The notes under the pieces: model-generated
The model's input: only the letters and a program-made list of their open reading frames with translations
What the model was told of the DNA's origin: nothing
The model's database searches: none
Part shown: piece by piece, positions 6,114 to 55,213 of the stretch
How positions within the stretch are numbered: the stretch's first letter is position 1
Layout: the number at the start of each line of letters is the position of its first letter
NCBI GenBank assembly: GCA_000004985.1
Contig: GG738845.1
From: Naegleria gruberi
Lineage: Eukaryota
Direction: 5' to 3' (one strand)
Length of the DNA: 64,000 bases
Position numbers and translations under genes: made by a program

Positions 6114-8429
6114 TTGAAGTTGTACCAATTCCCTCCAATTTTAAATACGTTTTTAATTAATCAAAAAATGACAAAGAGTGGATGGAAGGCTAATCCAGAC
6201 TTTTTCAAACAACAACAAAACAATAATGATATACAGGTTTTTGTTGGAAAACGACCTACTACAAGCAATATTGCTTCATCATCTACAAAAATACAACAAG
6301 TATCCACAAGACCTTCAACAAGTATTCAACCGGAAGAGACAAAACTTTCATCAAGATTATTAAGTAACAAATCAAAACCAAGAAAAGAGCCAATACCCCC
6401 ACAACAGGAGTCATTATACGAGATGACAAAGTATTTAAACAAACAGACGAGGGATATTTACAATAATGAAGATAGTTTTCAGCTTGATGACTCAGATTCA
6501 CGACTTTTCAAGCCTGCCAGGCAACATACTCTACATATGGATGATTTAGAGGACTCTTTCAATGAAAGTGACACACAAGAGCAAGAAGATGAGTATGATC
6601 CGAGGAGCCCACAATCAATACATGAATCTCCAATTAAAAAACCACTTCCTTCCCATAGAAGATCATTATCGGCTAGAATGCTTCCTAATATGGGAAGGGG
6701 GTTTGCTACCACAAAAAGAGAAGAGTCAGAAGAAGACTCTCCCATTAAGGAGCAATTGAGAGAAGAAGTAATACCAAAAAGAAAGGCTCCTAGGTACCCT
6801 TCATCTCTTTTAAATAAGAACACTAACTCAGAGCAAGTAATGGAAGAAATTACTCCTTCAAATGCTCAATTAAGAAAATCACAGGAAGAAATAACCAAAC
6901 TTTCAGGAGAAGTTACCTTCCTAAGGAAAGAAAAGGCAGAACAATCAAAAAGTCACAACGAAAAAGTAAGATCGCTGCAGGAAAGACACACTGAAGAGCT
7001 TCAAATTCAACAAAAGCGATTTGAAACCATTCTTGGGGATAAGGAAACTAGAATAACTGATCTTCAACGTGAAAATGAAAGATTGAGAGAACAACTTGGT
7101 GTCATCGATAGGAGCAAAGATGGGCAGGATACGAATAAGTTATTAAATGATTTGGATAATAAGCGGAAATCAATAGCTAATATGGAAAATGAGAAGATGG
7201 TGTTGATGGATCAAATAGAAAAAATGAAATATGATCTGGGAGAATGCACTAGACAATTAAAAGAAAGTGAAGCCAAAATAAGGAACAAAGAGGAAACATT
7301 AAATGGGTTGTCAAACAAGATTGAAACTCAAGAAAAGGAGATTAAAAATTTAAAAGAAAGAGAATTTAAGGAAATTAATGAGCGAGAAAAGGCTTTAGCC
7401 ATGTACACTGAGAGCGACAAGACCAATCAACAACTTCAAGAAAAATTGAAGAACTTGGAATTCCAATCTAAACAAATTCAAAGAGAGAATGAGATTCTCT
7501 CTCAAAGATATAATTCTATAGAAACAACAAAGATTCAACTTGAAAAAACCAATGACCAATTAAGGGCTAAAATTCAAATTACTGAGGAAGAGTTAAATCA
7601 CAATTCTCAAGAGCAATCAATATTTCATCAAGATAGAGAACAATACCAACTCAATAAGCAAAGATCTCAACAGGAGTTGGAAAATTGTAGAAGAGAAATA
7701 CTACACCTTCGTGAAACAATTAACATTCTCAAGAATGAAAAATCTACTCACTCCAACAGTTACATGATAAAAAGTGTAAATGACCATGCCTCCTTTCCAA
7801 TTAATGATATTGAAAACAATACTCCAAACTATACCTACCACCAATCGAACTTGAATTACAACAGGAAAAATACAAACATTCCATTATCTTCATACTCAAC
7901 TCAGAGTTTAATTGGAAATGAAGCAACAACTTCATTTACAGGTACCTCCACAAATACTAACGCTAGAGAAGCTAGTCATTATGATTATGCTGCTAGAGAC
8001 CAAAATCTTCAGCGAACCCAAAATCTCCAAAATAATCGATATCAACAACCAGAAATAAGCAAAGAACATGCAATTGTTGATACCCCAAAACAAAGTGCCA
8101 CTACTGCGAAAGTAATGTCTATCATCAACAGAGAAAGCCCAAAAGAGAGGCAGTACAATAGAAACAAAATTATGGGTACTTCATACAGCCTTACTCCTTT
8201 CGCGCTGGATGATAATATTTCAAGTTTACAAACAGCTAACATTGATGAACAGTTAATGCAACTCTCTCTCGAAAAAACAAGATTAGAAGGTGATATGCAA
8301 AAGCTATTTTCAATGGGGATAAAGAGTATTGCAGCTAAAAAACAAAAAATGAGCTTGGAGCTAAGGTTAGAAGAAATTGAAAAACAAAGCTCCCAGCTTA
8401 AAATGAGATTGAGGAATATGAATTACTAA
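6114..8429 (+). CDS. Long coiled-coil protein with a Ser/Thr-rich N-terminus (about 770 aa); the true ATG is probably MTKSG at about 6168
   Basis: There are heptad-rich segments across residues 250-520 ([35 protein letters not shown]...). The track start is TTG. I recognise no catalytic domain. Confidence 0.5.
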
Positions 8430-9772
8430 TTTATTGATCCGCTTTGATAATTTGGGAAGGATTGGAAATTCTCATCATCAACATAAACATTTTCATCAAT
8501 TTCAGTAGGTTTCCTTCTCTTATTCTTTTTAATATTAGTCATTAAAGTTTGAATTCTTTCTTCTTCATTTTCTTCAGAAGGATCAAATACTCTGTCAATT
8601 GCAATTATATGAGCAGAAGGAGAAGAGGTCACATTGCCTGCATTATTATTCGCTTCTGTTTCAAGAGTAATTTGCTCATAAACTGATCTATTCAAATTGC
8701 CATCTAGGAATGTAAAATATAATACTGGTCCAAAAAGGGCAAAATAAAGTACCCTAGATGACATTGTAAAACAAATTCCAACGCTTTGACATGTTAGTAA
8801 TAGTACACCTCCAACGAAATTTACAGAATGTAGTGTCATTAAAAATAATATGTACAAATAAAATGATTTCCTCTGAGGAACTCTATCCTTCATAAATCCT
8901 ATACACGGTAAAATGATAATAACAATATACATAATGGTAAATAATCCTCTCACAATAGTTTCTTGTAGGGCTGATTCGAGAACATTTGTTGTCATAATTG
9001 ATGGAAAACCTGTTTCATTATAGAAAGGAAATATGAACATTACTGAAACAGCAGCTGCATTATCTAAAACAGAGACTAGTCCAGCAATAATTGCACTTCT
9101 AACTAAAACTTTAAGATTACTCAGTGATGCTATCAATTTTCTTGGAGAGAAATGATGCATCATATATACTACAACACAAAGTTCAATAAATTCCATCAAT
9201 AGATTAAGTATCGAGAGGCATACCTTTGTTGCAATATCCAACTCATTTGATGGAATGTTTTGAGTAGATATTAAAGAGATATGATTATTAGGATGTGGTG
9301 GTACAGGTTGGGAATTATTTACATTGTACTGATACAAGGGTGAGGTTTGTAAATTTTCTTCAATATAGAAAATATTTTCTCCAATTAATGCAACGCTTGC
9401 TGTTGACAAACACGTGACTAAATGCACTACACATACACACCATACAAATGTATAAAGGGCTGGCAGTAGTAAACTATCCGTTTTCTTTAAAATTTTAACG
9501 GAAATTTTTAATTTAAATAATAAATATAATATAAATATCAAGTTTGGAATTAATGTAATAAAATAATATAAATCTAATCCACCTAAAATTCTTAAAAACA
9601 TAATATCAACACAAAATTCCGATGTTCCTTGGTTGTTGTTGCTAGGAATATTATTAAAAAAAGGACAAACTGGAAGAAAATGATTTCCCGTTGAATGTTT
9701 ATGATGATGATTGTGGTGAGAGTGATTACTTGCAAAAACAAGACCTCCACCTACAGTCTTGTCGATAAGCAT
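8426..9772 (-). CDS. Multi-pass (about 7 TM) membrane protein with a His-rich N-terminus, receptor or transporter-like, family unassigned
   Basis: 448-aa ORF with an ATG start. There are several 20-25-aa hydrophobic segments, and the N-terminus carries SNHSHHNHHHKHS. The stop codon overlaps the stop of the convergent gene 6114..8429. Confidence 0.45.
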   Translation of the reverse strand: MLIDKTVGGGLVFASNHSHHNHHHKHSTGNHFLPVCPFFNNIPSNNNQGTSEFCVDIMFLRILGGLDLYYFITLIPNLIFILYLLFKLKISVKILKKTDSLLLPALYTFVWCVCVVHLVTCLSTASVALIGENIFYIEENLQTSPLYQYNVNNSQPVPPHPNNHISLISTQNIPSNELDIATKVCLSILNLLMEFIELCVVVYMMHHFSPRKLIASLSNLKVLVRSAIIAGLVSVLDNAAAVSVMFIFPFYNETGFPSIMTTNVLESALQETIVRGLFTIMYIVIIILPCIGFMKDRVPQRKSFYLYILFLMTLHSVNFVGGVLLLTCQSVGICFTMSSRVLYFALFGPVLYFTFLDGNLNRSVYEQITLETEANNNAGNVTSSPSAHIIAIDRVFDPSEENEEERIQTLMTNIKKNKRRKPTEIDENVYVDDENFQSFPNYQSGSIN

Positions 9773-9807: not shown

Positions 9808-10374
9808 ATGAAGCCAAACAGAACTCAAAACATTAAGAGGAAACACAACAACTCTCAACCACTACTACTATCATCATCAACTATTAAAAATTTTGAAATA
9901 AGGGACAATTTGTGGACATTAAAAGTATTATATTTCCTTTCATTAATTTATTTTTCTATAATTTCAATTGTTCATATTATTAATGCTCTTTCTGAGATTA
10001 AATTTTTCAAATCATTAGATATTCATGGTGAAATTATTCCGACCCTATTTGATTATCATCCAATACTGAACATTATTTTGTTGTTCGTTTATTTTGGTTT
10101 GATATCATTGAGCACTTTTCACAGTTTGAAATATTCAAGATCTTTGAATCTCTACTTGTTCATTCAATTTGGTTTGATGGGAATGACATTTGTTTGGTTT
10201 TTCTCTTTAATCAATCATGTTTTCTACTACTTTACAAGTTTGGAACATACATACTCCTATTTAACTCTCATTATTTCAAGTGTTTTGAATGGTTATGGTG
10301 TTTTTATTTCATCTATGATAGTTTATTACGGGTACAAACTCAAGAAATCGCTCAGATGTCAAACCTCTAAATAA
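9808..10374 (+). CDS. Small (about 188 aa) 4-TM membrane protein, hypothetical
   Basis: ATG at 9808; the track start at 9787 is GTG. Four hydrophobic helices. The start lies only about 35 bp from the divergent gene starting at 9772. Confidence 0.35.
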   Translation: MKPNRTQNIKRKHNNSQPLLLSSSTIKNFEIRDNLWTLKVLYFLSLIYFSIISIVHIINALSEIKFFKSLDIHGEIIPTLFDYHPILNIILLFVYFGLISLSTFHSLKYSRSLNLYLFIQFGLMGMTFVWFFSLINHVFYYFTSLEHTYSYLTLIISSVLNGYGVFISSMIVYYGYKLKKSLRCQTSK

Positions 10375-10376
10375 AG

Positions 10377-12230
10377 TTAAAAGTAATTAAGAGAAATGTT
10401 ATAATCAGTTTCTCCAGAATTCCAACGAGCTCCATTCAATAACAACTTTTCCTTACTCTTCTCCTTCTTCTTTGGTAATACCATTCCTGAGCTAATGATA
10501 CCTAATTCACTCTTCACTAGAGATAATTGTTTAAGTTGTGAAATACTGCTCTTAATTCTTGTTTGAATCGTTTGAATAACTTCTAAGCAATCCTTTTTAA
10601 GTAAAAATTCTCCAAAATGTGAATGAACCAATATTTGTGTCCAAACCATACATGATTCAATATGAACTGCTTCATCTTTCAATAAATTCAAAACCGTAAC
10701 AACTGCTTCAAAATCTAAAGTCTTGACAAATTTCATCATACTCAATAATTGTACATTTCTGTACTGGCTATTCAATACAAGTCTTAAACCTTCCTGATAA
10801 TTTTCTCTGTTGTAAATACTGATATAACGAATAATTTGTTCATCTGATAAAATGAGCAATTTTACAATGAGATTCAAACTTGTTCTATACTTTGCACTAT
10901 AATTGTCCAATAAATAATTAACTATCTTATTCATAATACCAATATGAATACTTGTCATTCCATCACTTCTTTCAATTTGGGTATAATTAGAAAGTAAATA
11001 ATCTAAGCAGGGTAAGACATTATCATTGGAAATATTATTGAAAACATGTTCCAATAAAATCTGATAATATTCAATCAATGGTAATTGTTTGATATATTCT
11101 AATAAATTAGAAGAATTCTTCAGTAAAGCATCTAGAATATTTAAACGTTTTTGTTGTAATTCTGTTTCAATCTTATTCCATTGAGATGAATCGTGAATAG
11201 AAAACACAAAACCATTATCAGTCTTGTGGGAGTCAACAAAAATGTTGGTCAATTTTCTATTCTTGATTTGGATAGCCTTTGTAAACTTTATACCATCAAA
11301 TTTGAACATTTTGAATAAACACTTATCAAAAATAACAAAAGGTTGGTTATAAGCAACAAATCTCAAATTATTCTTGATTAGTGCATATTTCATTACTGTT
11401 GTTAAATCCTTATTCCAAATTTGGATAATTGTGGAGTTTTGGTTGTTCATTGTAAGTAATAAGTAGTCATTGTCATATTTTGAAATATTAATATTCTTGA
11501 ACAATTTTTTGAAAGTAACCAATTTAGTATTTTGGTCTTTAATAAAATTATAGGAAAATAATGTATTGGTTGAAATATCTAAGTAAATCAAACATGATTC
11601 AGTACTATATTTATACTCGTATTGCTCAACATTGGTTAATAATTTCTTCAAAGAAATGCTAATAGATGATCCTTGAATTGTATGTAAAACATGTTCATGA
11701 TTAATGTGAATAAATTCATTTTCAAATATATTTTTAACTATTTGGTAGAATTTGATATCCTTTACATGATTTACAATCTTTGATTGATTACCATCTACAG
11801 TATGTTCCGTAATAGATGACTTATTCTTAGTATAGTAAACTAGCGAGTCATTATTAAAATATATTCTAGATGAATTACTTTTTGTGCTGTAGGTAGTCAA
11901 ATTTTCAATTTGGTCCTTCAACTTTTCAAATCTAGTGAATGAAAAGTTATCATTCTCTTGTTTCACGGAAAGAATATATTGTGATGATGATTCCAATCCA
12001 ATGATTTCTTTTATGGATTCATTATTAATTTTTCCTTCCAAAGATTTATCACAAGATAAGATACACTTGATTGAAGATGTATTATTAATTAAATCATAAT
12101 TTGTTGTATCACTTTCAACATTGTTACTAGTATTTGACTCCGTAATATTGTTGCTGGGTGGTAAACTTTTTGTTGGGCTGGTAATGTTTGGTGCTGCTTT
12201 TGAAGGTGTTGTGGAACGCTTTTTTGTCAT
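10377..12230 (-). CDS. Hypothetical 617-aa protein with a Ser/Thr/Asn-rich N-terminus and a structured C-terminal domain
   Basis: Long uninterrupted ORF starting at ATG. I recognise no family. The stop is 2 bp from the stop of the convergent gene at 10374. Confidence 0.4.
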   Translation of the reverse strand: MTKKRSTTPSKAAPNITSPTKSLPPSNNITESNTSNNVESDTTNYDLINNTSSIKCILSCDKSLEGKINNESIKEIIGLESSSQYILSVKQENDNFSFTRFEKLKDQIENLTTYSTKSNSSRIYFNNDSLVYYTKNKSSITEHTVDGNQSKIVNHVKDIKFYQIVKNIFENEFIHINHEHVLHTIQGSSISISLKKLLTNVEQYEYKYSTESCLIYLDISTNTLFSYNFIKDQNTKLVTFKKLFKNINISKYDNDYLLLTMNNQNSTIIQIWNKDLTTVMKYALIKNNLRFVAYNQPFVIFDKCLFKMFKFDGIKFTKAIQIKNRKLTNIFVDSHKTDNGFVFSIHDSSQWNKIETELQQKRLNILDALLKNSSNLLEYIKQLPLIEYYQILLEHVFNNISNDNVLPCLDYLLSNYTQIERSDGMTSIHIGIMNKIVNYLLDNYSAKYRTSLNLIVKLLILSDEQIIRYISIYNRENYQEGLRLVLNSQYRNVQLLSMMKFVKTLDFEAVVTVLNLLKDEAVHIESCMVWTQILVHSHFGEFLLKKDCLEVIQTIQTRIKSSISQLKQLSLVKSELGIISSGMVLPKKKEKSKEKLLLNGARWNSGETDYNISLNYF

Positions 12231-14760: not shown

Positions 14761-14847
14761 TTTAGAAATACATCGAATTAATTCTTTGACACAACACCAA
14801 CCAAACATCTATAAAATAAATACAAATTAAACAAAATATGATAAAAC

Positions 14848-16641: not shown

Positions 16642-16661
16642 TAATAATTTATTGGATAAAT

Positions 16662-24378: not shown

Positions 24379-27300
24379 CTACCACAGTAAGTGGTAAAAG
24401 TGCAACTCTCTTATCAATAATTTCCTGTACTCATCGTATAAAAGTATTAGAATACCATAAAATACTGGAAGTAGCCAAAACAACCAAATCATATTTCTTG
24501 TTCCAAAAATATAATCACCAATAAAAGGTACATAAATAGCAATACAAGCTATGCATACAGAAAATATTATTCCCATGTAAATGGCCAAATTACTAAACAT
24601 TCCTTGCATAAGTAAAGATGTTCTTCTGGTTCTAGAGCTTACTAAAGCAAACCATTGACAAACAACTATTGCAAGGAAGTAAGCCGTTTGGGCTGTTGCT
24701 AGAATATTCCATTGGGCAGATGGAGATAGAAAAAGCCCTGTTTCTGCAATATACAAGTATTGGGTAGTCGAAAGAGAAAAAAAGCCAGGTACACTTCTAA
24801 ATAGGTAATGAGGAGGAATTCCATAGTAGGCCAAAGCAAAGAAGAAGGAGGTAAAGGCGGCCAATGTTTCAATAACACCAACCTGCATATATGAAAATGA
24901 AAGTACTCTCACACCAACAAGAAGCTCTGATTTTGGTCTTGGAGGAACTGTCATAATGTCGCTCTCTTTTGTCTCATACGATAAACTAATTGCTGCCACC
25001 AACTCAGTACCGAGGTCTATGCACAACACTAATAAACCAGTTATTGCTGGAGGCATTCCAATAATTATTACAAGTATTCCACAAAGTTCTGGGAGTAAAT
25101 GAATAAGAGTATAACTAATACTCTTTTTCAGGTTATCAAAAATCAATCTTCCTTCCTCTACTCCATTTACAATTGAGGCAAAATTGTCATCCATTAAAAT
25201 AATGGCAGCAGCTTCTTTTGAAACGTCTGAACCAGATATATTCATAGCAATGCCAATATCTGCCTTTTTTAGTGCTGGTGAATCATTTACACCGTCCCCA
25301 GTAACTGCAACACAATTTCCAGCTTCTTGAAATTTGCTAACAATGACCAATTTTTGTTGAGGAGAGGTTCTAGAAAATACAATCTGCTTTTTCTTCAAAA
25401 TATATTTCCATTCTATGTCTTTTAATTTATCTATTTCCTCTCCATTAAGAACCACTGCATCAACATCTGGTCTTTTGTACTCAATTATTTCTGGTGGAAA
25501 ACCCTCCTCAGCAGCAATGTCATCTCTCGTTTTACTATTTGATTCAAGAATACCAACCTGTTTTGCTATTGCTTTGGCAGTTGTGGGATGGTCACCTGTT
25601 ACCATTACAACTTGAATCCCTAAAAGAAATTAATTACAAATTTTCATAATGAATTCACTTACCTGCATGTTTACATTTGGTAATAGCATCTGTAACTCCA
25701 ACTTTTGGTGGGTCAGTCAATCCCACAAGCCCTATAAATGTAAACCCATTTAAAGGTAATTGTTGGTTAGTATCATCAGAAACTGCAATAGTACTACCGG
25801 TAGGATCTCCTCCAATCTTAACTGTACCTGTTTCTTCTCTCTCTTTTACTTGATTTACTAAATCAGTGGTGGTAAATCTTTGAGCTAATCCTAATACACG
25901 TTGTCCCTTACTGGCAAAAAAAGAGTAGGCATCTTGAAAGTGTTGTCTTAAATCATCATTGATGGATATTGCCTGACTATTCAAATAAATGGAATCACAT
26001 TTTTCCAATACTCTCTCTGGTGCTCCTTTCAACAGCATTAGTGAGTTCGCATTATCAAAACATTGACCTTGACAAGAGTGAATGGTGAGCATCCACTTGT
26101 TCTTTGAATTGAAGGGAATTTCATAAAGTTTTGGAAAACCATTTCTAATATCCATTAAGCTGGCATACTCTGATCTTGTTTCTACAAATTTTACAAGTGC
26201 TATTTCTGATGCATCTCCAATGCATTCCCTGTCTAGGATTGGTTTGTTTAAATTCTCTTCAGATTCAACGAAAATGGTCTTGGAACAGAGTGCGGAACAT
26301 CTAATGAGTTTTTGTGGAGTTGATAAATTTACCTCTTCAATGTTAGCAAAGTTTGGGAGTGATTCTACGTTTGGTTTGGATTTCATCATTCTATTTTGAT
26401 AACAGACATCTGAAAGTGATCCATCACACCACTGTTCTACAACCGTCATTCTGTTCTGAGTGAGGGTGCCTGTTTTATCAGAGCAAATTACATTTACACC
26501 ACCCAATGTTTCTACATGCTCTAATTTCTTTACCAATACGTTAATATCTGATAATCTCTTTGCAGAAACTGTCAAACATAATGTCATTGTTGCAATCAAA
26601 CCTTGTGGAATGTTGGCAGCAATAATTCCAGTACTGAAAAGAACACACTGAAACCATGGATTTCCTAATGCAAGCCCAATCACAAAAAATACAACAGCTA
26701 AAATTAGCGACATAGAACCTAAAGTTCTTACAAAAGTGTCTATTTGCCTTCTTAGAGGTGTTTTTAAGGGAGAAGCTTGGGCCATTAGAGCAATTTGGCC
26801 AATAACTGTTTGACCACCAGTCCTAATAACAATACCAATTGCACTCCCTTCAACAACAATAGTTCCAAAGAATGCAAGATTTGAAGATTCTAAAGGATTA
26901 TGAGAAGATGATTCAACAGTTCTGGACTGTGGCTCAGATTCTCCTGTCAATGAACTGTTATCCATTTTCAAACCATTTACGAATAATAGTCTTAAATCAG
27001 CTGGAACTTTAGAGCCAGGTTCAATATGAATCAAATCTCCGACTACAACTTCTGAAACATCTATTCTTTGTAAATTTCCCTCTCTTATAACCATACAGTT
27101 AGCTGTTTGTAAAGCTAAAAAGGCAGCAATAACTTTTTCAGAGCTATGTTCTTGCCATAGAGTAATTGTTGCGTTCATAACCACCACAAACCAGAGTATG
27201 GCCCCTAAAAATATATTTGGATAAGAGGCAGGTGTACGGTCAATGGCAACATTAATGAAACTCAATAACCCAGCAAATAACATTAGTAAAGAGAAGAGGG

Positions 27301-28006
27301 TTGTTAATTGATCGATAACTTTCCAAATAAACTTTTCTCGTTTTGGTGGAGTGAAAATATTTGGTCCATTGATTTTGAGTCTTTGGGTTGCTACTTCTTT
27401 TGAAAGCCCATACGAAGATTGTGGATTATCAATATTGAAAGAAGTATTATATAATTCACAAACTTTTTCAGAACTCATTTCATGCTCTTCAATAATTACT
27501 GCTTTCTTTTTTGCTTTTTGAATATGCTTTTTCTTGTGCTTTCGGTGGCGATGAATGACTTTATCCTTTCCTTTAGAAATTTCATCGTGCATAATATCAA
27601 TAGATTGCCTAACTTCTTCAAACAGCCTTGGAATCTCACTTACTTGAGGAGCTGTTGCAACATTCAGAGAAGGATTGGGAAGAAAGGTAGAAAGAACAGA
27701 AGATCTTCTTGTAAAGGTTGGAACTGTTTCGGTAGGTTGAGGTATTTTAGAAGGATTCATACTGTATCTTCTTCCCAACTCTGTCAAGTCTTCATCTGGT
27801 CTTACATTCGATAAATCTATTGAATAAAGTCTGTTAGGATCTATGAAGCTTGCTCTTCTTATAGGATAAGTGCTTGGAGATGGTAGAGGATAATCGGCAT
27901 CATTATTGGGAAAACTATCTTGAACAGGTTCATTCGAGTCATTTGATTGTGGATTATTCACCAAGTTGGTACTTGGAAAACGGAAGCTATCTAAATTACT
28001 GCTCAT
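24379..28006 (-). CDS. Type IIC P-type ATPase, Na+/K+-ATPase alpha-subunit-like, with a Ser/Pro-rich N-terminal extension of about 170 aa. Two exons: 28006..25663 and 25619..24379
   Basis: Contains CSDKTGTLTQNRMTV (phosphorylation site) and TGES. The 43-nt GTAAGT...TTTTAG intron lies inside the conserved segment DPPKVGVTDAITKCKHAG|IQVVMVTGDHPTTAKAIAKQVGIL, compared with Na,K-ATPase [37 protein letters not shown]. It also carries GDGVNDSPALKKADIGIAM. Confidence 0.85.
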
Positions 28007-28983: not shown

Positions 28984-29004
28984 TTTTTTATTATTTTTTT
29001 AATA

Positions 29005-34082: not shown

Positions 34083-34119
34083 ATAGCTAAATCAAGCAAT
34101 CAAATAAAATTTATATCTN

Positions 34120-34179
34120 NNNNNNNNNNNNNNNNNNNNNNNNNNNNNNNNNNNNNNNNNNNNNNNNNNNNNNNNNNNN
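34120..34179. other. Assembly gap (60 N)
   Basis: Run of N characters. Confidence 1.
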
Positions 34180-36705: not shown

Positions 36706-39700
36706 ATGATCTCAACACAAAAAGCTATTCATCACATTGTGTTGCTGAGAAAGAAGCCTTTGCTTTTGCATTGGAACATTCTCATTTTCATGATTTTATA
36801 TCCTTTAGCTTCTTTGGGAATTAATGTCTACTTACTTCCTGCCATGTTGCACTCTCATTCCGATCATTCTCACCATCATCATCATCACGAATCACATTCA
36901 GATAATTTATTTTTTTATCATCTTGTTTGTTTGGGTCCTTTGGCTTTGATACATTTAGTTACATTCCTCTCAGCCTATTGGAATGTTAATATCAAGGCTT
37001 TTTTTCAATACTCACCTGTTGGTTCTGATTCCATCAGTGAAGGAATTGTTGTTAAAGTTGTTCCGAACAAACACAAAGGGTTCACAGAATTATGCCCTCT
37101 AAAATTAATAAGAGAGGAAAATGGGCAACAGCGATATTATTTCGAATATCAAAAGCGAGGCTTTTATTGGGATGAAAATTTAAAACAATTCGTTAGAAAC
37201 CGTTTTCCATATCAAAATTTGGAGCAAAAATCCCAAACACTCAAGGAATGGATCACAAAGACTGAGAAACAAGGTTTAACTGATAAGGAAACACACGTTA
37301 AGAGAAGAATTTATGGTCATAATCAATTTGAAATTCCAATACCAAAGTTCCTTGAGTTATTTATCGAACATGCATTAGCTCCATTCTTTGTATTTCAAGT
37401 ATTCTGTGTATTGTTGTGGTGTTTAGATGAGTATTGGTACTATTCCCTTTTTACACTTGTTATGTTGTTCATGTTTGAGAGTACTGTTGTAAATTCGAGA
37501 TTGAGAAGTCTTAACCAAATAAGACAAATGGCCACAAAGCCTCAATTCTTAAATGTCTATAGAGATGGCAAGTGGATAGAAATTTCAAGTATTGATCTCT
37601 TACCTAACGATATAATTTCTGTTACTCATCATGCTGAAGAAGGCCAAGTAACACCATGCGATATTTTATTAATTAGTGGCAAATGTGTAACGAATGAAGC
37701 CCTCCTTACTGGTGAATCTACTCCACAAATGAAAGAATGTATTCCTGTGGAAGAGTTGAAGGATAGAAAGAAGCTTGATATCAAAAATATTGATAAGAGT
37801 CATGTTATATTTGGAGGTACAGTTGTTTTACAACACACAACAGGAACAGCATGTGGAAAACAAGCTCCAGACAAAGGTGCTGTTGGTATTGTGTTGAGAA
37901 CAGGCTTTGAGACGTCTCAAGGAAAGCTCATTAGAACCATTTTATATGCTTCTGAACGTGTGAGCGCTAATAACGTAGAAGCACTATTGTTCATCTTGTT
38001 CCTTTTAATTTTTGCAATTATTGCTAGTGCATATGTGCTATATGAGGGATTAAAGAATCCTGAAAAGAGCAGATACAAATTGGCACTCAATTGCATTTTA
38101 ATTATTACTTCTGTAGTTCCTCCTGAATTACCAATGGAACTTTCTCTTGCAGTCAATAACTCTTTATTGTCACTCTCCATGTTAGGAATTTTCTGTACTG
38201 AACCTTTCAGAATCCCATACGCTGGTAAAGTTAACGTTTGTTGCTTTGACAAGACTGGTACCCTAGTCAGTGATAAGATGACACTCAAGGGAATTGCAAT
38301 GTCAGAAAATGATTCTGATGAATTATTGGAGAAACCAAGTGAAAAGAGTAGAATGGTATTGGCTGGTTGTCAATCCCTCATCGATCTGAATGGAAAAATA
38401 TTGGGTGATCCTATGGAAGTTTCTGGTCTTTCTGGTGTTGAATATGAAATCAATAAGGATATTATTCAAAGTACTTCATCAAAGACCATCAAATCCATCA
38501 AAATACTGAAGAGATTTCCTTTCAACTCAGTCCTCAAAAGAATGTCTACTATTGTTCATGTTGTAGAGAAGAATGACTCTAAGGTTACTCGTGTTCTCGT
38601 AAAGGGAGCTCCAGAGTTAGTAAAGCCATTCCTTACTGGAAGTGAAGTTCCAGGCGCTCTTCAATCCTATGACACTAGATTCCAACATTTAACCCAAATC
38701 GGTATGAGAGTAATCACACTTGCCTATAAGGATTTGAACACCACCGATCTTAATGTAGTAGAAAAATTAACTAGAGAAGAAGTAGAAAAAGATTTGATTT
38801 TTGCTGGCTTTGCTTCATTCCAAAGTGATATTAAGCCAAATACCAAAGAAACTATTCAAAATCTTAAAAATAGCTCACACAAGGTTATTATGATCACTGG
38901 CGATAATCCTTTGACCGCCTCACATGTTGCAAAAGAATTAGAAATGACAAACAAGCCAATTCTGTCCCTCAAACAAGACAATGAAAAATATTATTGGTTC
39001 GGAAATACTAGCAGTGGATGTGACTCGGACACGCACAAAGATTTTGATATTAGTACTATTCCAACACTTTCAAAATCATTTGATTTTTGTGTAAGTGGTG
39101 AACAAATGGCTAACCTTTCAGCACTTTCGAATGGAAAAACTATTTTGGATGTCCTTTCTTCCCATGTTGCAATTTTCGCTCGTGTTAGCCCCGAACAAAA
39201 AGAATCCATCTTGACATCACTCAAATCACAAAATTATCAAACTCTCATGTGTGGTGATGGTACTAATGATGTTGGTGCCTTGAAACAAGCTCATGTTGGT
39301 GTGGCACTTCTCGAAAATAAGCCCCAACCAAAGAAGGAAAACGAAACCCAACAACCAAATACACCCCTCCATAAGAAGAGCGATATTATCAAGGAACTTT
39401 CTAAAGTTAATCCATCAGTTAGTCCTCAAGCTCAACAAAAGAAATCCTTCACAGAGTTGTTGAAAGAAATGAAAGAAAAACAAGAACAGTTGGCAGCTCA
39501 AGAAGAGGCTAATCTTGTTAAGTTGGGAGATGCTTCAATTGCTAGCCCTTTCACTTCTCGTAAATCCACAATAGAATCATGTGCTCATATTATCATGCAA
39601 GGACGTTGTACATTAGTTACCACAATGCAAATGTACAAAATATTAGCTTTAAATTGTCTCATTTCTGCCTATTCTTTGAGCGCTCTCTACTTGGATGGTG

Positions 39701-40305
39701 TAAAGTTTGGTGATTCACAAATGATGATAACTGGCTTTGGAGTTGCCTTGTGCTTCCTTTTCATTTCAAGATCCAAACCTTTAGATACTTTATCCAAAGA
39801 AAGACCACATATTACTATTTTTTCTCCTTACATGTTAGCAACTGTGATGGGACAATTTATTGTTCACTTGACAACACTAGCTCTCAGTGTTCAGGCTGCC
39901 AAACTTGCTGCTCCTGAAGTGTTATTCGAACCAAAAGAAGCAGATTTTAAACCTAATCTTCTTAATACTATTGTTTTCATTGTTACTTCCCTTCAAACAA
40001 TTGTCACATTTGCTACAAATTATAAGGGAAGGCCATTCATGCAAGGCTTGACAGAAAACAAACCTCTCTTCTTCATTTTGGCAGGTATAGGAGCATTATG
40101 CATGTTATGTGCAAGTGGTTTAGTACCAGAATTGAATGCAACCATGGAATTAGTAGACATTCCTGAGGGAATTTCAGTTTTCCACACTTTTTCATTTAGA
40201 AGTTTCCTTTTGGTTCTTCTCTTTGCTAATATTGGAGCTGTTTTATTGGTAGAAAAGATGTGTGCTACTTTCTTCCCTGCAAGTGATTCAATTGATAATC
40301 TTTAG
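36706..40305 (+). CDS. SPF1: P5A-type P-type ATPase (Spf1/ATP13A1 family)
   Basis: 1199-aa ORF with an ATG start. Contains CFDKTGTLVSDKMTLKG, VVPPELPMELSLAVNNSL (the P5A-type PPELP motif), GDGTNDVGALKQAHVGVAL and a His-rich N-terminus HSHSDHSHHHHHHESHSD. Confidence 0.9.
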   Translation: MISTQKAIHHIVLLRKKPLLLHWNILIFMILYPLASLGINVYLLPAMLHSHSDHSHHHHHHESHSDNLFFYHLVCLGPLALIHLVTFLSAYWNVNIKAFFQYSPVGSDSISEGIVVKVVPNKHKGFTELCPLKLIREENGQQRYYFEYQKRGFYWDENLKQFVRNRFPYQNLEQKSQTLKEWITKTEKQGLTDKETHVKRRIYGHNQFEIPIPKFLELFIEHALAPFFVFQVFCVLLWCLDEYWYYSLFTLVMLFMFESTVVNSRLRSLNQIRQMATKPQFLNVYRDGKWIEISSIDLLPNDIISVTHHAEEGQVTPCDILLISGKCVTNEALLTGESTPQMKECIPVEELKDRKKLDIKNIDKSHVIFGGTVVLQHTTGTACGKQAPDKGAVGIVLRTGFETSQGKLIRTILYASERVSANNVEALLFILFLLIFAIIASAYVLYEGLKNPEKSRYKLALNCILIITSVVPPELPMELSLAVNNSLLSLSMLGIFCTEPFRIPYAGKVNVCCFDKTGTLVSDKMTLKGIAMSENDSDELLEKPSEKSRMVLAGCQSLIDLNGKILGDPMEVSGLSGVEYEINKDIIQSTSSKTIKSIKILKRFPFNSVLKRMSTIVHVVEKNDSKVTRVLVKGAPELVKPFLTGSEVPGALQSYDTRFQHLTQIGMRVITLAYKDLNTTDLNVVEKLTREEVEKDLIFAGFASFQSDIKPNTKETIQNLKNSSHKVIMITGDNPLTASHVAKELEMTNKPILSLKQDNEKYYWFGNTSSGCDSDTHKDFDISTIPTLSKSFDFCVSGEQMANLSALSNGKTILDVLSSHVAIFARVSPEQKESILTSLKSQNYQTLMCGDGTNDVGALKQAHVGVALLENKPQPKKENETQQPNTPLHKKSDIIKELSKVNPSVSPQAQQKKSFTELLKEMKEKQEQLAAQEEANLVKLGDASIASPFTSRKSTIESCAHIIMQGRCTLVTTMQMYKILALNCLISAYSLSALYLDGVKFGDSQMMITGFGVALCFLFISRSKPLDTLSKERPHITIFSPYMLATVMGQFIVHLTTLALSVQAAKLAAPEVLFEPKEADFKPNLLNTIVFIVTSLQTIVTFATNYKGRPFMQGLTENKPLFFILAGIGALCMLCASGLVPELNATMELVDIPEGISVFHTFSFRSFLLVLLFANIGAVLLVEKMCATFFPASDSIDNL

Positions 40306-40307
40306 TT

Positions 40308-42212
40308 CTACAACAATACCTCTCCAATAAATTTACATGATTTAAGAATATCTTGTTTTCCTGATTTTGAAACACGACAATCTGTCAAATCTAAAAATCT
40401 CAAACTCCACGATCTTTTTAAATAATCAATAATCTCATCTCCTATCAGTGTGTGTGAAATAATGAGAAGTTGTAATCTTCTGAAACCCCTTTTTGAATCC
40501 ACAATTCTATTGAATATTGCCTCACAAGCAGTGTTTGCAGCGATGTTTGTATGGCTCATATCCAATGAATGCATTCTTGGAGGTAAGGAGATTGGACTTT
40601 TAAAACAACCATTACTTATCTCATTATTGCGAGCAAGATTTAAAACCTTCAATGTTGATATCTGAAATATGGCATGACAACCAATATCGGTAATGTTATT
40701 CATTGACAAATCCAATTCTTCAATACCCCTATTTTCCTTTTGTGACTGAAAGTGCTCTGATATTTTTTGAGCACTACTAGAGGTCAACCCAGTATCAATC
40801 AGTTTTAGTATCCTTAGTGGTATTTTGCAATTTTCCAAAATAGTTTCAATATGTTGATTTGATATTGTAAAACTATTAATTTCCAAATATCTTAGATTGC
40901 ACGATTCTCTCATACAAACATTATGGTTAATCTTTAATTTGGTAATAAATTTTGAAGGTATTAAATCCTTTTCATTCTGCAAGCTTTTTCGAACATCCAA
41001 ACATTTAATATTTGGAAGCTTTCTTAAAATTGTATTCATTGATTCTGTGAATAGAGAAAGAGAATAATTTCCAGCAATTTTTAATACTTTGCAATTATTG
41101 ATATTATCCAACAATGTTAAAAATCCAGTAAAATAATCAAGTGAACAAAATGATAGATCAAGGTACTCCAATGACTTGTTAGTACAAGTCTCATATTTTT
41201 CATGATCCAATTTGATACCAATATTGTATTTCAATGAAAGTTTCTGTAAATTTTTCATAGTGGTTAATATTTCAACCAAACTGTCGTCTGTTAAATCACA
41301 CCCATCCAATGATAACTCTTTTAATGATACTTTTGATGAGCATAAGCTATGTACAATTGATTTAAATAATATTCGAGTTTCTTTAGAATATTCATCCTCC
41401 AGCTGATTATTTTCAATCGAACCAAAAAGATAATTTAGTTTCAGTACTTGTAATTTGGGTGAATTGTAAAATAATTTATCGAACCATCCAACACAATTCT
41501 GAATATAATCCAGAGAATTTCTGTAAAACTTCCGTTGACATGGAAATGTCATCCCAGAGAGATCTAAATATTTTAAATTATCCAACTTGTTTTCAATTAA
41601 AGCGTTGAAATTATGCAATAAAGAACTTTCATCGGATTTAATATTTAAATATCTAATAATTGAAATAAAACTTTGTTCTCTATTAATTATATTCATTCTA
41701 CTTTTTAAAAATTCATTATTCCATAATTTTAAAACTCTATACGAATAGGGAGAAAAATCCAATTTCTCAATTGTTAAATTATTTTTTCCATGTTTTAAAT
41801 ATTGACTCATAAAATTGATGGGACTAGACAACTTGGAATTCAGAGTTAATCCCCTACAGTGTGATGGTATAAAGTTGGAAAGTACAGATATTGTAAGATT
41901 AAAATCTTGATTCTTTCCATAGGGCCATTCATATAAATTACAATATTTAATATTTGGCCAAACCAGAAATATTCTACTTCTTCCTCCTCCTTCCTTGTAT
42001 CCAAATAGTAATTTAATAAAATAGGATTTCAAATAATATAATGGTGTTGATTCATCATAGAGAGAATATAAATTTTCCAGTAATGATTGTTGTTGATTTT
42101 GAATTTTACAATCCTCCAAATATTCAATAACATAAATTGAAATATTCAATTCTAAATATTCCATAATACAATAAACAATTTCGATTGGTAAATCAACATG
42201 GGCACGAAGCAT
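40308..42212 (-). CDS. Leucine-rich-repeat protein (ribonuclease-inhibitor type) with an F-box-like N-terminus
   Basis: The N-terminus LPIEIVYCIMEYL is F-box-like, followed by repeated L..L.L..N.I units (LDLSMNNITDIGCHAIFQISTLKVLNLARNNEI...). Confidence 0.55.
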   Translation of the reverse strand: MLRAHVDLPIEIVYCIMEYLELNISIYVIEYLEDCKIQNQQQSLLENLYSLYDESTPLYYLKSYFIKLLFGYKEGGGRSRIFLVWPNIKYCNLYEWPYGKNQDFNLTISVLSNFIPSHCRGLTLNSKLSSPINFMSQYLKHGKNNLTIEKLDFSPYSYRVLKLWNNEFLKSRMNIINREQSFISIIRYLNIKSDESSLLHNFNALIENKLDNLKYLDLSGMTFPCQRKFYRNSLDYIQNCVGWFDKLFYNSPKLQVLKLNYLFGSIENNQLEDEYSKETRILFKSIVHSLCSSKVSLKELSLDGCDLTDDSLVEILTTMKNLQKLSLKYNIGIKLDHEKYETCTNKSLEYLDLSFCSLDYFTGFLTLLDNINNCKVLKIAGNYSLSLFTESMNTILRKLPNIKCLDVRKSLQNEKDLIPSKFITKLKINHNVCMRESCNLRYLEINSFTISNQHIETILENCKIPLRILKLIDTGLTSSSAQKISEHFQSQKENRGIEELDLSMNNITDIGCHAIFQISTLKVLNLARNNEISNGCFKSPISLPPRMHSLDMSHTNIAANTACEAIFNRIVDSKRGFRRLQLLIISHTLIGDEIIDYLKRSWSLRFLDLTDCRVSKSGKQDILKSCKFIGEVLL

Positions 42213-42234
42213 TTTTTTTCTAATAACTTTTTAA

Positions 42235-44130
42235 ATGTTCCACCAAAGAATGTTTTTTTCTCTAACAATATATTGTAAAGATATGTTTATTGGTATTTTT
42301 ATTGCCTTAGAGAGCAAATCCAACAAGATTTACCAACACAATTTAATCTTGATTTCAAGAGAGAATGAGATGATTCATGCACCCTTGCTGCTAATAATAA
42401 AAAATTATTTAGAAAAAATGAAATTAACACAAATCAACTATCAAGAGGACGAAATAACAAAGGATTATTTGATTGGAGATTCTTGTCTAATCAATAATTT
42501 CGAATTAAAAGATACTAGGAATGATGAAATGAAGAGTTTAGAATTTATTTCCGATAACAATTCATCAATTTGTTTGTATGGTTTCCTTCAAAAACATCCA
42601 AGAAATACAACAAATTCTTTCTTCGTTAAGATTTTACATTTAAAACAGTGGAATTTTAGTGAAAGTGGAGATATTATTGTACAATCATCAAGATATTGGT
42701 ACAAATTATTGAATCCATCCCCTGAATATGCTCCAACATTTGATTTGTTCGAGCAAAGACATAATCTATGGAGAGAATTAAAACCTATTTTGATGAGTTG
42801 GACGAGCGATTTATCTAGATGTGAGGAAGAAGATGAATTGAGCATGATTAAAAACAACATTACTATTGAAAAAGTTTTGCAAAAATTACCGAACACAAAT
42901 GAAGATTATCTATTAGACCATGCCCAATTTTTATATGATCAAATACTTCAAGATACCTCATCCTTTTCCATTCATGGATCTGATGTGAATCAAATGATGA
43001 ACACTCCATTACTATTCTCATTAAAAGAGAACCGATTCAAAAAGAAAGAAAATCAAATGATCAAAATTACAAAAGAAACTGCCTTGATGGATGGTATAGA
43101 GCTATCAGATTCTGACTCATATGACGAAAAGGATTTTGGTACCACATCTGAAGATGAAAGTGAGGATACTAATAGTGAGCCCACACAAAGTAAATCAAAA
43201 AGAAGAAAATATAAAAAGAGAGAAACTCCTAATAAGAAGAAAAAAACCAATCATGAAGAAAAGGGTAAAAGACAAAAGAAGGCTATGAAACAAGTATACA
43301 CAACAGCACACAAAATGGAAGAAGGAATACCTTCACGAAATTATTTTTTAGAAAAAGAATTTTCACCTCAACTCCTTTCTGAGTTGAGTGTGAAATATGA
43401 ACCTGGAATATGTCATTCTGGTAAGTTGATTGATTTTACATTCCTTAATAACTTGAATTTCTAAGTATGCTTCCAATGCAAAAAGAGAAGAATAGCTTGC
43501 TATAAAGAAAGGCCTGCATGTTCCAATTGTCTGAAAGAAGGTCTTCAATGTACATACCCAGAACTTATGAGGCTTTCACGTATGTTTCTTATTTTGTAAT
43601 TAAATATTTAATATATTTACCTCCCAATAATAGCATGTGTTCCATGTGGAGAACGCGGTGGTAAAGTATGCAATAGAGAAAAACCAACCTGTGATATCTG
43701 TATAGAACGTAAGTATGATATTTTAATTTGGCATTTTAACATTTTGATATCAGGAAAAACCAATTGTTACTATTTTAGCTCTGATACTTTTCTCATTCTT
43801 GCAGAAAAGAATATTAATTCAGCAAAGGAACAAAACGAAGAAACCATTGAAAAGAAAACTAATATCACCACATGGAACGATGAAGCTTATTCTGAAATTT
43901 TAAAGGAAATGAATGAAAAGATTAACAAATATTCCAATGTTAAAGAAACAGAAATCTCAAAAATCCTTGAAAAAACAACCACTCAACAAAAGGTAACAAC
44001 AATGGAAGATCTTGAAGATTTGGAAGAACAAGTGGTAAGATGGAAAGCAAAAGCTGAAAAGGAAAAGAAAAAAAGGATTGGAATCAAAGAAAAATTAGAA
44101 CAATATATTGAAAAACTTGATGAACAATAG
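42235..44130 (+). CDS. Fungal-type Zn(II)2Cys6 binuclear-cluster protein with two tandem Cys6 motifs near the C-terminus. Four exons (about 42235..43420, 43466..43579, 43634..43707, 43754..44130). An apparent 1-nt frameshift falls inside exon 3, so this is either a sequencing error or a pseudogene
   Basis: In frame after the track stop at 43462-43464: CFQCKKRRIACYKERPACSNCLKEGLQC (C-X2-C-X6-C-X6-C-X2-C-X6-C). A GTAAGT donor at about 43421 removes the stop. After a 54-nt GTATGT intron a second cluster reads CVPCGERGGKVCNRE, then a frame change in an A4 run, then PTCDICIER...C. The last exon is track ORF 43744..44130, which starts at TTG. Confidence 0.5.
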
Positions 44131-44141
44131 TAAATGTTACT

Positions 44142-54859: not shown

Positions 54860-55213
54860 ATGAAACAAAACCTCTCTGCAGAACCCTCTACCGAACATAT
54901 TTTCCCAGTCTTTATTAACGCCCAACTTTTTAAACCTCTCTCAATTCAAAAACCAAAACGTTTACTCAAACGCTCTCCATCAATAATCACAACTGTCGAT
55001 GTGCAACATTTAGGAAGAGCCTTCTCTGCTCAATTAGTACTCCAGTTTAGAGGTGAGATTGACAATGATCTCATCTATAAGAATTTGATAAGAAAGGCTT
55101 TGAGACCTCTTAATCCGGAAGACTACAATCTAAATGTTCAACAATCAATTAGGGCATCTAGAGAACTTATTTCCAAGTTAAATGAAAATGTTACCACAAT
55201 GTTCTTTATTTAA
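54860..55213 (+). CDS. Small hypothetical protein (117 aa), possibly mitochondrial
   Basis: ATG start, basic. The stop codon overlaps the stop of the convergent gene at 55210. Confidence 0.3.
   Translation: MKQNLSAEPSTEHIFPVFINAQLFKPLSIQKPKRLLKRSPSIITTVDVQHLGRAFSAQLVLQFRGEIDNDLIYKNLIRKALRPLNPEDYNLNVQQSIRASRELISKLNENVTTMFFI

What the first reader, a model, noticed from the sequence alone, without database searches (positions are those of the whole stretch)
8420..8435. Convergent genes with overlapping or abutting stop codons; microsporidia-like compaction
The TAA of gene 6114..8429 and the TAG of gene 8426..9772 overlap at 8426-8429. The same arrangement occurs at 55210-55213. Convergent stops are only 2 bp apart at 10374/10377 and 40305/40308. 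Divergent start codons are 22-100 bp apart at 42212/42235, 9772/9808, 6070/6114 and 3468/3535. The 3'UTRs must overlap antisense, and promoters must lie inside neighbouring genes. Density is about one gene per 1.9 kb despite a full flagellar and centriolar gene repertoire.
Basis: seen in the sequence. Interest (0 to 1): 0.55.

Follow-up and report, generated by a model that had tools for sequence, protein, structure and literature searches.

The report
Abutting convergent genes in Naegleria gruberi
Two real genes on opposite strands of the Naegleria gruberi genome end in stop codons that overlap each other, an ordinary consequence of this amoeba's tightly packed genome and very short mRNA tails, not a new mechanism.

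Summary
At 8426-8429 the + strand TAA and the - strand TAG share two bases. The same arrangement (TTAA) occurs at 55210-55213, and 2-bp spacers sit at 10374/10377 and 40305/40308.

The window is Naegleria gruberi NEG-M, not a microsporidian. It is about 86% ORF, with roughly one gene per 1.8-1.9 kb.

At the focal junction both stops are confirmed by homologues, and a relative about 90% identical in DNA keeps the overlap. After I corrected several terminal introns, ten convergent spacers have a median of 14 bp. The four flagged junctions are therefore the low tail of a general pattern.

AATAAA lies within -8..+40 of 11 of 32 stops, against 1.7 expected. It overlaps 4 of 32 stops, matching published direct-RNA results for N. 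gruberi (AAUAAA signal, median 3'UTR 39 nt, 11-13% "dual-use" stops).

The best explanation is deletion-driven compaction, tolerated because poly(A) signals sit at or in the stop codon. Each mRNA would then end inside its partner's coding region. That overlap is inferred, not shown.

Corrections: 6114 is TTG and the real start is ATG 6168. The + partner at 55213 is an orphan 117-aa ORF. Interest is low.

The parts
6168..8429 (+). CDS of the + partner at the focal junction (753 aa). It is a coiled-coil protein with an enkurin-like C-terminal domain and corresponds to N. gruberi NAEGRDRAFT_61133.
   Evidence: Uninterrupted ATG ORF. It is 100% identical to the 422-aa public model, which has the same C-terminus ...RLRNMNY. 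The last ~80 aa align to the extreme C-termini of at least 12 homologues. The tail after LKMxLR is the same length as in N. fowleri. The Enkurin match is below threshold.
8427..8429 (+). TAA stop of the + gene
8426..8428 (-). TAG stop of the - gene. It shares 8427-8428 with the + stop.
   Evidence: In the relative L001 the stop is TAA and the overlap reads TTAA.
8426..9772 (-). CDS of the - partner (448 aa), a Tmemb_40 (PF10160) membrane protein
   Evidence: Pfam E=8.6e-31. Orthologue at 90% identity and full length in L001. The C-terminus YQSGSIN* matches N. lovaniensis YQGSIQ*.
8430..8435 (-). AATAAA (TTTATT on +) in the last codons of the - gene, ending one base before its TAG stop. Predicted poly(A) signal.
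   Evidence: It is conserved in L001. The N. lovaniensis orthologue has AATAAA overlapping its stop. AAUAAA is the N. gruberi signal (PMC11529991).
9808..10374 (+). 188-aa multi-pass membrane protein gene, the + partner of the 2-bp junction
   Evidence: 202-codon open frame. 76% aa identity to the ORF at the same place in L001. Codon usage is ambiguous. Its C-terminus is not covered by any relative.
10370..10375 (+). AATAAA that contains the TAA stop (10372-10374), a "dual-use" stop and poly(A) signal
10377..12230 (-). 617-aa gene with a Utp12-like C-terminal domain, the - partner of the 2-bp junction
   Evidence: There is no GT[AT][AT]GT donor near the stop. The first AATAAA is 52 nt past the stop, inside the partner's CDS.
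36706..40305 (+). P5A-type ATPase (1199 aa), the + partner of the second 2-bp junction
   Evidence: Pfam. The C-terminal 299 aa align to Spf1 and ATP13A1 structures, with a similar unaligned tail of about 40 aa on both sides.
40326..40331 (+). AATAAA 20 nt after the ATPase stop, lying antisense in the last codons of the LRR gene
40308..42212 (-). LRR protein (634 aa). Its 3' end is 2 bp from the ATPase stop and its ATG is 22 bp from the ATG at 42235.
   Evidence: No relative was found in metagenomes, so its C-terminus is not checked by homology.
54860..55213 (+). 117-aa orphan ORF, the + partner of the second 4-nt overlap
   Evidence: The only database match is itself, in 99.9%-identical metagenome contigs. 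Codon usage is in the range of real genes. An ORF this long arises by chance in about 0.1% of simulated spacers. No intron joins it to the TPR gene upstream.
55210..56892 (-). 560-aa gene, the - partner of the second 4-nt overlap. Its stop is the complement of 55210-55212.
   Evidence: It has no Pfam match.
55205..55210 (-). AATAAA that starts in the third base of the - gene's TAA stop ("dual-use")
14761..14777 (.). 17-bp convergent spacer, found once the cytochrome b5 terminal intron (14809-14851) and its 31-nt last exon are recognised
16642..16661 (.). 20-bp convergent spacer. It holds the AATAAA of the - gene.
44131..44141 (.). 11-bp convergent spacer. The + gene 42235..44130 has several exons, and its apparent stop at 43464 lies inside intron 43421-43464.
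42213..42234 (.). 22-bp spacer between divergent ATGs

Best explanation
This is the normal gene packing of the Naegleria gruberi nuclear genome, seen at its limit.

Two unrelated, independently transcribed protein genes face each other tail to tail. All DNA between them has been lost, down to the last bases that can go without changing either protein. At the 4-nt overlap, only the third base of each last sense codon is constrained.

This is tolerated because Naegleria mRNAs need almost no private 3' flank. The AAUAAA poly(A) signal often sits in the last codons or in the stop codon itself. Cleavage follows about 20 nt later. The downstream context is supplied by the partner's coding sequence read antisense.

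Each mRNA is therefore predicted to end inside the other gene's last codons or further in. That would give complementary 3' ends of roughly 90-125 nt at the three junctions where both ends can be predicted.

**Shown:** the ORF geometry, the authenticity of both stops at the focal junction, the organism, the window-wide short convergent spacers, and the enrichment of AATAAA at stops.

**Inferred:** the positions of the mRNA 3' ends, the antisense overlap of mature transcripts, and deletion as the cause.
For: - **Organism.** The + gene is 100% identical to NAEGRDRAFT_61133 of N. gruberi.
- **Both focal stops are real.**
  - The + gene's C-terminal domain sits at the extreme C-terminus of homologues. 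Its tail is the same length as in N. fowleri.
  - The - gene's C-terminus matches N. lovaniensis.
  - The overlap is kept, as TTAA, in a relative about 90% identical in DNA.
- **The pairing is recent.** The two genes are not neighbours in N. fowleri, N. lovaniensis or Willaertia magna.
  - The N. fowleri orthologue of the + gene has a 100-bp spacer to a different partner.
  - The N. lovaniensis and W. magna orthologues of the - gene have spacers of 156 and 1380 bp to different partners.
  - The pairing therefore looks specific to the N. gruberi lineage, and the proteins did not change length to create the overlap.
- **General pattern.** Ten convergent spacers measure -4, -4, 2, 2, 11, 17, 20, 45, 87 and about 141 bp. 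The median is 14 bp, against 97 bp for divergent spacers (p=0.005). 86% of the window is ORF.
- **Poly(A) signals.**
  - AATAAA lies within -8..+40 of 11 of 32 stops, against 1.7 expected at random positions.
  - It overlaps 4 of 32 stops (12.5%).
  - Each of the four tight pairs has a partner with AATAAA at -7 to +23 of its stop.
- **Published RNA data for N. gruberi (PMC11529991).** AAUAAA is the top signal. The median 3'UTR is 39 nt. 11-13% of stops overlap AAUAAA, and those 3'UTRs have a median of 22 nt.
Against: - No RNA evidence for these particular genes could be obtained. The only contigs matching the window at near-identity were genomic.
- The + gene at the focal junction has no AATAAA within 110 nt of its stop. 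The nearest variant is CATAAA at +55, so its 3' end is unpredictable.
- The C-termini of four of the eight genes (188 aa, 617 aa, 634 aa, 560 aa) are supported only by ORF length, codon usage and the absence of donor sites.
- The 117-aa partner is an orphan ORF.
- An excess at exactly -4 or +2 bp is not statistically established from ten pairs.
- Deletion bias as the cause is inference.
Confidence: 0.8

Rival explanations
1. Gene-model artefact. One ORF at each junction is not a real gene end, because of an unrecognised terminal intron or a chance ORF, so the true stops are further apart.
For: Five other ORF "stops" in this window do lie in introns with GTAAGT-type donors: those at 3100, 14848, 23909, 28522 and 43464. 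The 117-aa ORF at 54860-55213 has no homologue. The 188-aa ORF has ambiguous codon usage.
Against: - At the focal junction both C-termini match homologues.
- No GT[AT][AT]GT donor lies at or just before any of the eight stops.
- A terminal intron would place the last exon deeper inside the neighbour and so increase the overlap.
- The 117-aa ORF has gene-like codon usage and a chance probability of about 0.001.
- The 188-aa ORF is 76% conserved in the relative.
- Where introns were corrected, spacers became shorter (87 to 17 bp, 677 to 11 bp).
Confidence: 0.07
2. Selected antisense module. The overlap is kept because the complementary 3' ends couple the two genes, through double-stranded RNA and RNA interference, or through transcriptional interference, as proposed for convergent genes in fission yeast.
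For: The 4-nt overlap is conserved in a relative about 90% identical in DNA. The predicted transcript overlap is about 90-125 nt (inferred).
Against: - The pairing is absent from N. fowleri, N. lovaniensis and W. magna.
- The paired genes are functionally unrelated: enkurin-like with Tmemb_40, and P5A-ATPase with an LRR protein.
- Spacers form a continuum from -4 to 141 bp with no distinct class.
- No RNA structure stands out at any junction (z from -0.8 to +1.3).
- At 90% identity, retaining a 4-nt arrangement needs no selection.
Confidence: 0.1
3. Stop capture by read-through. One ORF lost its own stop and was extended until it met the complement of its partner's stop. [C/T]TA followed by A or G gives TAA or TAG in one frame.
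For: The geometry allows it. By my own rough estimate, not a tool result, about one approaching ORF in six would stop exactly at the -4 position. It cannot be excluded for the orphan 117-aa ORF, which has no homologue for comparison.
Against: At the focal junction, the tail after the conserved LKMxLR motif is 4 residues in both N. gruberi and N. fowleri. The - gene ends at the same residue as in N. lovaniensis. Neither protein was extended.
Confidence: 0.05
4. Assembly or sequencing error that collapsed an intergenic spacer.
For: The window contains three runs of N, so it comes from a draft scaffold.
Against: The N runs are not at these junctions. L001 reproduces the focal overlap. L003 and L004 reproduce the 55210 junction base for base.
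Confidence: 0.01

Closest known systems
Overlapping transcription of adjacent genes in compacted eukaryotic genomes (microsporidia and nucleomorphs; Williams et al. 2005, cited in PMC3629993 and PMC2099475)
   Same: Intergenic spacers are too short to hold the 3' and 5' ends of mRNAs, so transcripts must run into neighbouring genes. Convergent pairs are among those affected.
   Different: Those are tiny, reduced genomes of intracellular parasites or endosymbionts, and transcript overlap was shown there experimentally. Here the host is a free-living amoeboflagellate with a genome of about 41 Mb and about 15,700 genes (from my memory of Fritz-Laylin et al. 2010, not checked). Introns and a canonical AAUAAA signal are retained. 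Overlap is only inferred.
"Dual-use" stop codon and poly(A) signal with ultrashort 3'UTRs in Giardia, Spironucleus and N. gruberi (PMC11529991)
   Same: AATAAA overlaps the stop at 10374(+) and 55210(-), and ends one base before the stop at 8426(-). The window frequency of 4/32 matches the published 11-13%.
   Different: The paper does not discuss convergent neighbours or CDS overlap. Giardia uses WGURAA rather than AAUAAA.
4-nt tail-to-tail overlaps of convergent genes in bacteria (TTAA, CTAA, TTAG)
   Same: The sequence geometry is identical, and it is the largest overlap that leaves both proteins essentially unconstrained.
   Different: This is a eukaryotic nuclear locus with spliceosomal introns and polyadenylated monocistronic mRNAs. 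Termination works by cleavage and polyadenylation, not by intrinsic terminators. No hairpins are present.
Convergent gene pairs with overlapping 3'UTRs in yeasts (from my own knowledge, not checked here)
   Same: Convergent spacers are shorter than divergent ones, and 3' ends overlap.
   Different: To my knowledge, yeast coding sequences rarely abut. Here the median stop-to-stop distance is 14 bp.

Membership tests
Tail-to-tail overlapping gene pairs of compact eukaryotic genomes | Adjacent protein genes lie on opposite strands with their 3' ends facing | tested here: met
   Both focal genes are validated by homologues.
Tail-to-tail overlapping gene pairs of compact eukaryotic genomes | The spacer is shorter than the two 3'UTRs together | tested here: met
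   Spacers are -4, -4, +2 and +2 bp, against a published median 3'UTR of 39 nt, or 22 nt for dual-use stops.
Tail-to-tail overlapping gene pairs of compact eukaryotic genomes | Mature transcripts are shown to extend into the neighbouring gene | not testable with these tools
   No transcript sequences for these genes were reachable. The contigs matching the window at near-identity are genomic.
Tail-to-tail overlapping gene pairs of compact eukaryotic genomes | Intergenic DNA is shortened generally, not at a single locus | tested here: met
   For the window only: 86% ORF and a convergent median of 14 bp. Genome-wide was not tested.
Dual-use stop codon and poly(A) signal (PMC11529991) | AAUAAA overlaps the stop codon | tested here: met
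   Met at 10374(+) and 55210(-). At the focal - gene the hexamer ends one base before the stop, so strictly it is not met there.
Dual-use stop codon and poly(A) signal (PMC11529991) | The resulting 3'UTR is about 20 nt | not testable with these tools
   This needs 3'-end mapping.
Microsporidian genome | The sequence belongs to a microsporidian | tested here: not met
   100% identity to N. gruberi NAEGRDRAFT_61133. Best other hits are N. fowleri, N. lovaniensis and Willaertia. A radial-spoke-head gene is present.
Prokaryotic convergent 4-nt overlap | Prokaryotic gene organisation without spliceosomal introns | tested here: not met
   GTAAGT...TAG introns are present in the window's second P-type ATPase (24379..28006, -), the cytochrome b5 gene and the Zn-cluster-like gene.

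The most novel reading that the evidence does not exclude
In N. gruberi, most convergent neighbours may produce mRNAs with complementary 3' ends tens to about 100 nt long. These may be used, through RNA interference or polymerase collision, to couple the expression of neighbouring genes, for instance during the amoeba-to-flagellate switch. That would make a free-living eukaryote with about 15,700 genes a natural system for studying pervasive convergent transcription.
Probability: 0.1. Interest if true: 0.5.

Novelty: new member of a known kind. Interest (0 to 1): 0.2.

Why it matters
It matters little as a discovery. Transcript overlap in compact eukaryotic genomes has been known since 2005. 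The short 3'UTRs and stop-overlapping poly(A) signals of N. gruberi were published in 2024.

Two things are modestly useful:
- In this 64-kb sample, stop-to-stop distances between convergent genes have a median of only 14 bp. That is comparable with parasite genomes, yet the organism is free-living and gene-rich. I found no paper that states this for Naegleria.
- Gene finders that forbid overlaps, or that miss short terminal exons, will mis-annotate such loci. The public model of the + gene here wrongly removes 332 residues.

The public direct-RNA data could settle the transcript-overlap question at once.

Tried and rejected
**Led nowhere**
- A concatenated query of six window proteins was sent to the 5.8-billion-protein search. 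The candidate list saturated at 8000 and nothing scored, so one of three searches was wasted.
- Exact look-ups found no contig for the Tmemb_40 gene, for the N. fowleri protein P0002, or for the public N. gruberi model P0006.
- The ribosomal protein uS5/RPS2 (PF00333) look-up was meant to recover a transcript with a poly(A) tail. It returned genomic metagenome contigs only.
- The metagenome scan with the LRR protein found no relative.
- The supplements of PMC11529991 are not held, and the N. gruberi genome paper is not held.
- L002 never appeared in the Python data folder, so comparisons with it used the protein-comparison tool.

**Considered and rejected**
- Synteny at the focal junction: the convergent neighbours in N. 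lovaniensis and N. fowleri are unrelated genes. The 448-aa length match in N. fowleri is a coincidence.
- An intron joining the TPR gene to the 117-aa ORF: none exists.
- Hairpin or bidirectional-terminator structure at the four junctions: z-scores run from -0.8 to +1.3.
- An alternative genetic code: TAA, TAG and TGA all terminate long ORFs.
- Non-coding RNA or tRNA in the window: none found.
- A pile-up of spacers at the -4/+2 limit: not significant with ten pairs.
Full report
**What is there.** The sequence at 8420-8435 reads GAATTACTAATTTATT. The + strand ORF ends with TAA at 8427-8429. The - strand ORF ends with TAG, which is the complement of CTA at 8426-8428. The two stops share two bases, and the ORFs share four bases when stop codons are included.

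- 55210-55213 is TTAA, with two TAA stops offset by one base.
- TAA-AG-TTA sits at 10372-10379.
- TAG-TT-CTA sits at 40303-40310.
- Three of the four divergent ATG pairs are right: 22, 35 and 66 bp.
- The fourth is not. 6114 is a TTG, which the bacterial-code ORF finder accepts as a start. The first ATG is 6168, so that spacer is 97 bp.

**Which organism.**
- The window has about 32% GC and eukaryotic gene content. This includes a radial spoke head protein, a P5A-ATPase, PIP5K, ribosomal protein uS5 and COQ7.
- It has canonical GTAAGT...TAG introns.
- The - gene's best relatives are a 90%-identical protein from a sequencing-run assembly, then N. fowleri (71%), N. lovaniensis (63%) and Willaertia magna (45%).
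- The + gene is 100% identical to NAEGRDRAFT_61133 of Naegleria gruberi.

The window is therefore N. gruberi NEG-M, a free-living amoeboflagellate. It is not a microsporidian.

**Are the two focal gene ends real? The - gene.** This gene (8426..9772, 448 aa) is a Tmemb_40 membrane protein.
- A full-length orthologue exists in contig L001.
- Its C-terminus YQSGSIN* matches YQGSIQ* in N. lovaniensis.

**Are the two focal gene ends real? The + gene.** This gene (6168..8429, 753 aa) is a coiled-coil protein.
- Its last ~80 residues align to the extreme C-termini of at least a dozen homologues.
- After the conserved LKMxLR motif there are four residues in both N. gruberi and N. fowleri, and five in W. 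magna.
- The domain is a sub-threshold match to Enkurin.

Neither protein was lengthened or shortened to create the overlap.

In L001, which is about 90% identical in DNA, the junction reads TTAA and the two called genes again overlap by 4 nt.

In N. fowleri, N. lovaniensis and W. magna the two genes are not neighbours.
- Each has a different convergent partner. The spacer is 100 bp for the N. fowleri orthologue of the + gene. It is 156 bp (N. lovaniensis) and 1380 bp (W. magna) for the orthologues of the - gene.
- In W. magna both lie on one contig, with locus tags 23 apart.

The pairing therefore appears to have arisen within the N. gruberi lineage.

**The other three junctions.**
- The P5A-ATPase ends at a normal length compared with solved Spf1 and ATP13A1 structures.
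- The 188-aa membrane protein is 76% conserved in L001, although that contig does not reach its C-terminus.
- The 617-aa, 634-aa and 560-aa genes are long ORFs with gene-like codon usage. None has a donor-like GT[AT][AT]GT at its stop. I could not check their C-termini by homology.
- The 117-aa ORF at 54860-55213 is the weakest partner.
  - Its only database match is itself, in metagenome contigs 99.9% identical to the window.
  - Its codon usage is in the range of confirmed genes.
  - An ATG ORF of that length arises by chance in about 0.1% of simulated spacers of that composition.
  - No intron links it to the TPR gene upstream.
  - I take it as a probable lineage-specific gene.

**The junctions are not outliers.** Several ORF "stops" elsewhere in the window lie inside introns. 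Correcting them made the spacers shorter, not longer.
- The cytochrome b5 gene has a 31-nt last exon that encodes its tail anchor. Its stop then lies 17 bp from the neighbour's.
- The gene starting at 42235 has several exons, carries Zn-cluster-like cysteine motifs, and ends at 44130. That is 11 bp from the next stop.

Ten convergent spacers without assembly gaps measure -4, -4, 2, 2, 11, 17, 20, 45, 87 and about 141 bp. The median is 14 bp. Divergent spacers have a median of 97 bp (p=0.005) and tandem spacers 58 bp (p=0.02). ORFs cover 86% of the window.

An excess at exactly 2 bp or less is not significant with ten pairs. The four flagged sites are best read as the low end of a general distribution.

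**How it most likely works.** Direct RNA sequencing of N. gruberi (PMC11529991) found three things.
- AAUAAA is the main poly(A) signal.
- The median 3'UTR is 39 nt.
- AAUAAA overlaps 11-13% of stop codons, and those 3'UTRs have a median of 22 nt.

The window agrees with this.
- AATAAA lies within -8..+40 of 11 of 32 stops, against 1.7 expected.
- It overlaps 4 of 32 stops (12.5%).
- Every tight pair has one partner with the hexamer at or near its stop: -7 for 8426(-), -2 for 10374(+), +2 for 55210(-) and +23 for 40305(+).
- The other partner's nearest hexamer lies 52-63 nt inside its neighbour's coding sequence, or is absent. For 8429(+) only CATAAA at +55 is present.
- The Tmemb_40 orthologue in N. 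lovaniensis also has AATAAA across its stop. This gene therefore carried a stop-proximal signal in a genome where it has a 156-bp spacer.

My reading is that genes with their poly(A) signal in the last codons need no private 3' flank. Deletions can then remove the spacer completely, and the cleavage site falls within the partner's coding sequence. Mature mRNAs of a pair would share complementary 3' ends of roughly 90-125 nt where both ends can be predicted.

The ORF geometry and the signal positions are shown. The transcript ends and the overlap are inferred.

**Alternatives.**
- A gene-model artefact is excluded at the focal junction and unlikely elsewhere.
- An assembly error is excluded by independent assemblies.
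- A selected antisense function is not supported. The pairing is recent, the partners are functionally unrelated, spacers form a continuum, and the junctions have no unusual RNA structure.
- Stop capture by read-through is excluded at the focal junction by the conserved C-terminal lengths. It remains possible only for the orphan ORF.

**Comparison with what is known.**
- The phenomenon belongs to the well-described overlapping transcription of compacted eukaryotic genomes, known in microsporidia and nucleomorphs (papers citing it were found).
- It also fits the "dual-use" stop and poly(A) signals described for Giardia, Spironucleus and N. gruberi.
- In the held library I found no paper that reports stop-codon overlap or convergent spacer lengths for Naegleria.
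- The gene models have been public since 2010, and the inference follows directly from published UTR lengths.

**Verdict.** It is a further lineage showing a known kind of arrangement, and interest is low.

Noticed in passing
window 6168-8429 (+): The public N. gruberi model NAEGRDRAFT_61133 (422 aa) removes residues 249-580 of an uninterrupted 753-aa ORF as an intron. The Willaertia magna orthologue (676 aa) aligns straight through that coiled-coil segment (query 78-598), so the public model is probably mis-spliced.
   Followed up: partly
window 42235-44130 (+): This is a multi-exon gene. Introns lie at 43421-43464, at about 43580-43633 and from about 43709. The internal exons encode two CX2CX6C...CX2CX6C motifs that resemble fungal Zn2Cys6 clusters. 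The ORF "stop" at 43464 is intronic.
   Followed up: partly
window 14778-15201 (-): The cytochrome b5 gene has a 43-nt intron (14809-14851) and a 31-nt terminal exon that encodes the last residues ...CLVGVVSKN*. ORF-based reading misses this exon.
   Followed up: yes
window 54860-55213 (+): A 117-aa ORF has gene-like codon usage but no homologue in 5.8 billion proteins apart from near-identical N. gruberi-like metagenome contigs. It is a candidate lineage-specific gene.
   Followed up: partly
L003, L004, L005, L006 (ENA ERZ929261 / run ERR1078381, project PRJEB11402): A public "metagenome" holds contigs 99.9% identical to N. gruberi NEG-M (7 mismatches in 8112 bp). N. gruberi, or a nearly identical strain, was therefore present in that sample.
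   Followed up: partly
L009 851-858 (JAESGV010003825.1): An unidentified organism (GC 38%) has a P5A-ATPase C-terminus 61% identical to the window's. It also has a convergent ORF whose stop lies 2 bp after the ATPase stop (TAA-TT-TTA). The partner ORF is not clearly related to the window's LRR gene.
   Followed up: partly
window 28983-29005 and 61159-61169 (-): Tandem same-strand pairs are just as tight. There are 21 nt between the PIP5K stop and the next ATG, and the upstream gene's AATAAA sits in that spacer. There are 9 nt between the stop at 61169 and the ATG at 61159, where TTTCAG just before the ATG could instead be an intron acceptor. The upstream mRNA's 3' end and the downstream promoter must overlap coding sequence.
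   Followed up: no
window 5019-5068, 15555-15604, 34119-34179: There are three runs of N (50, 50 and 61 bases). Two of them fall in convergent spacers (4788/5174 and 34082/34188), which I therefore left out of the spacer statistics. The third lies inside the ORF 15258-15668.
   Followed up: yes
window 47150-47635 and 51900-52397 (+); 16662-19061 (-): Two Ras-family ORFs and a protein-kinase ORF match only the C-terminal parts of their Pfam domains. Their first exons must lie upstream across introns, so the ATG positions of these genes are not those of the ORF list.
   Followed up: no
L015 11732-11765 (N. fowleri): The N. fowleri orthologue of the + gene has a canonical AATAAA 22 nt after its stop and a 100-bp spacer. 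The N. gruberi gene has no AATAAA within 110 nt of its stop. Its poly(A) signal seems to have been lost or replaced when the spacer disappeared.
   Followed up: partly
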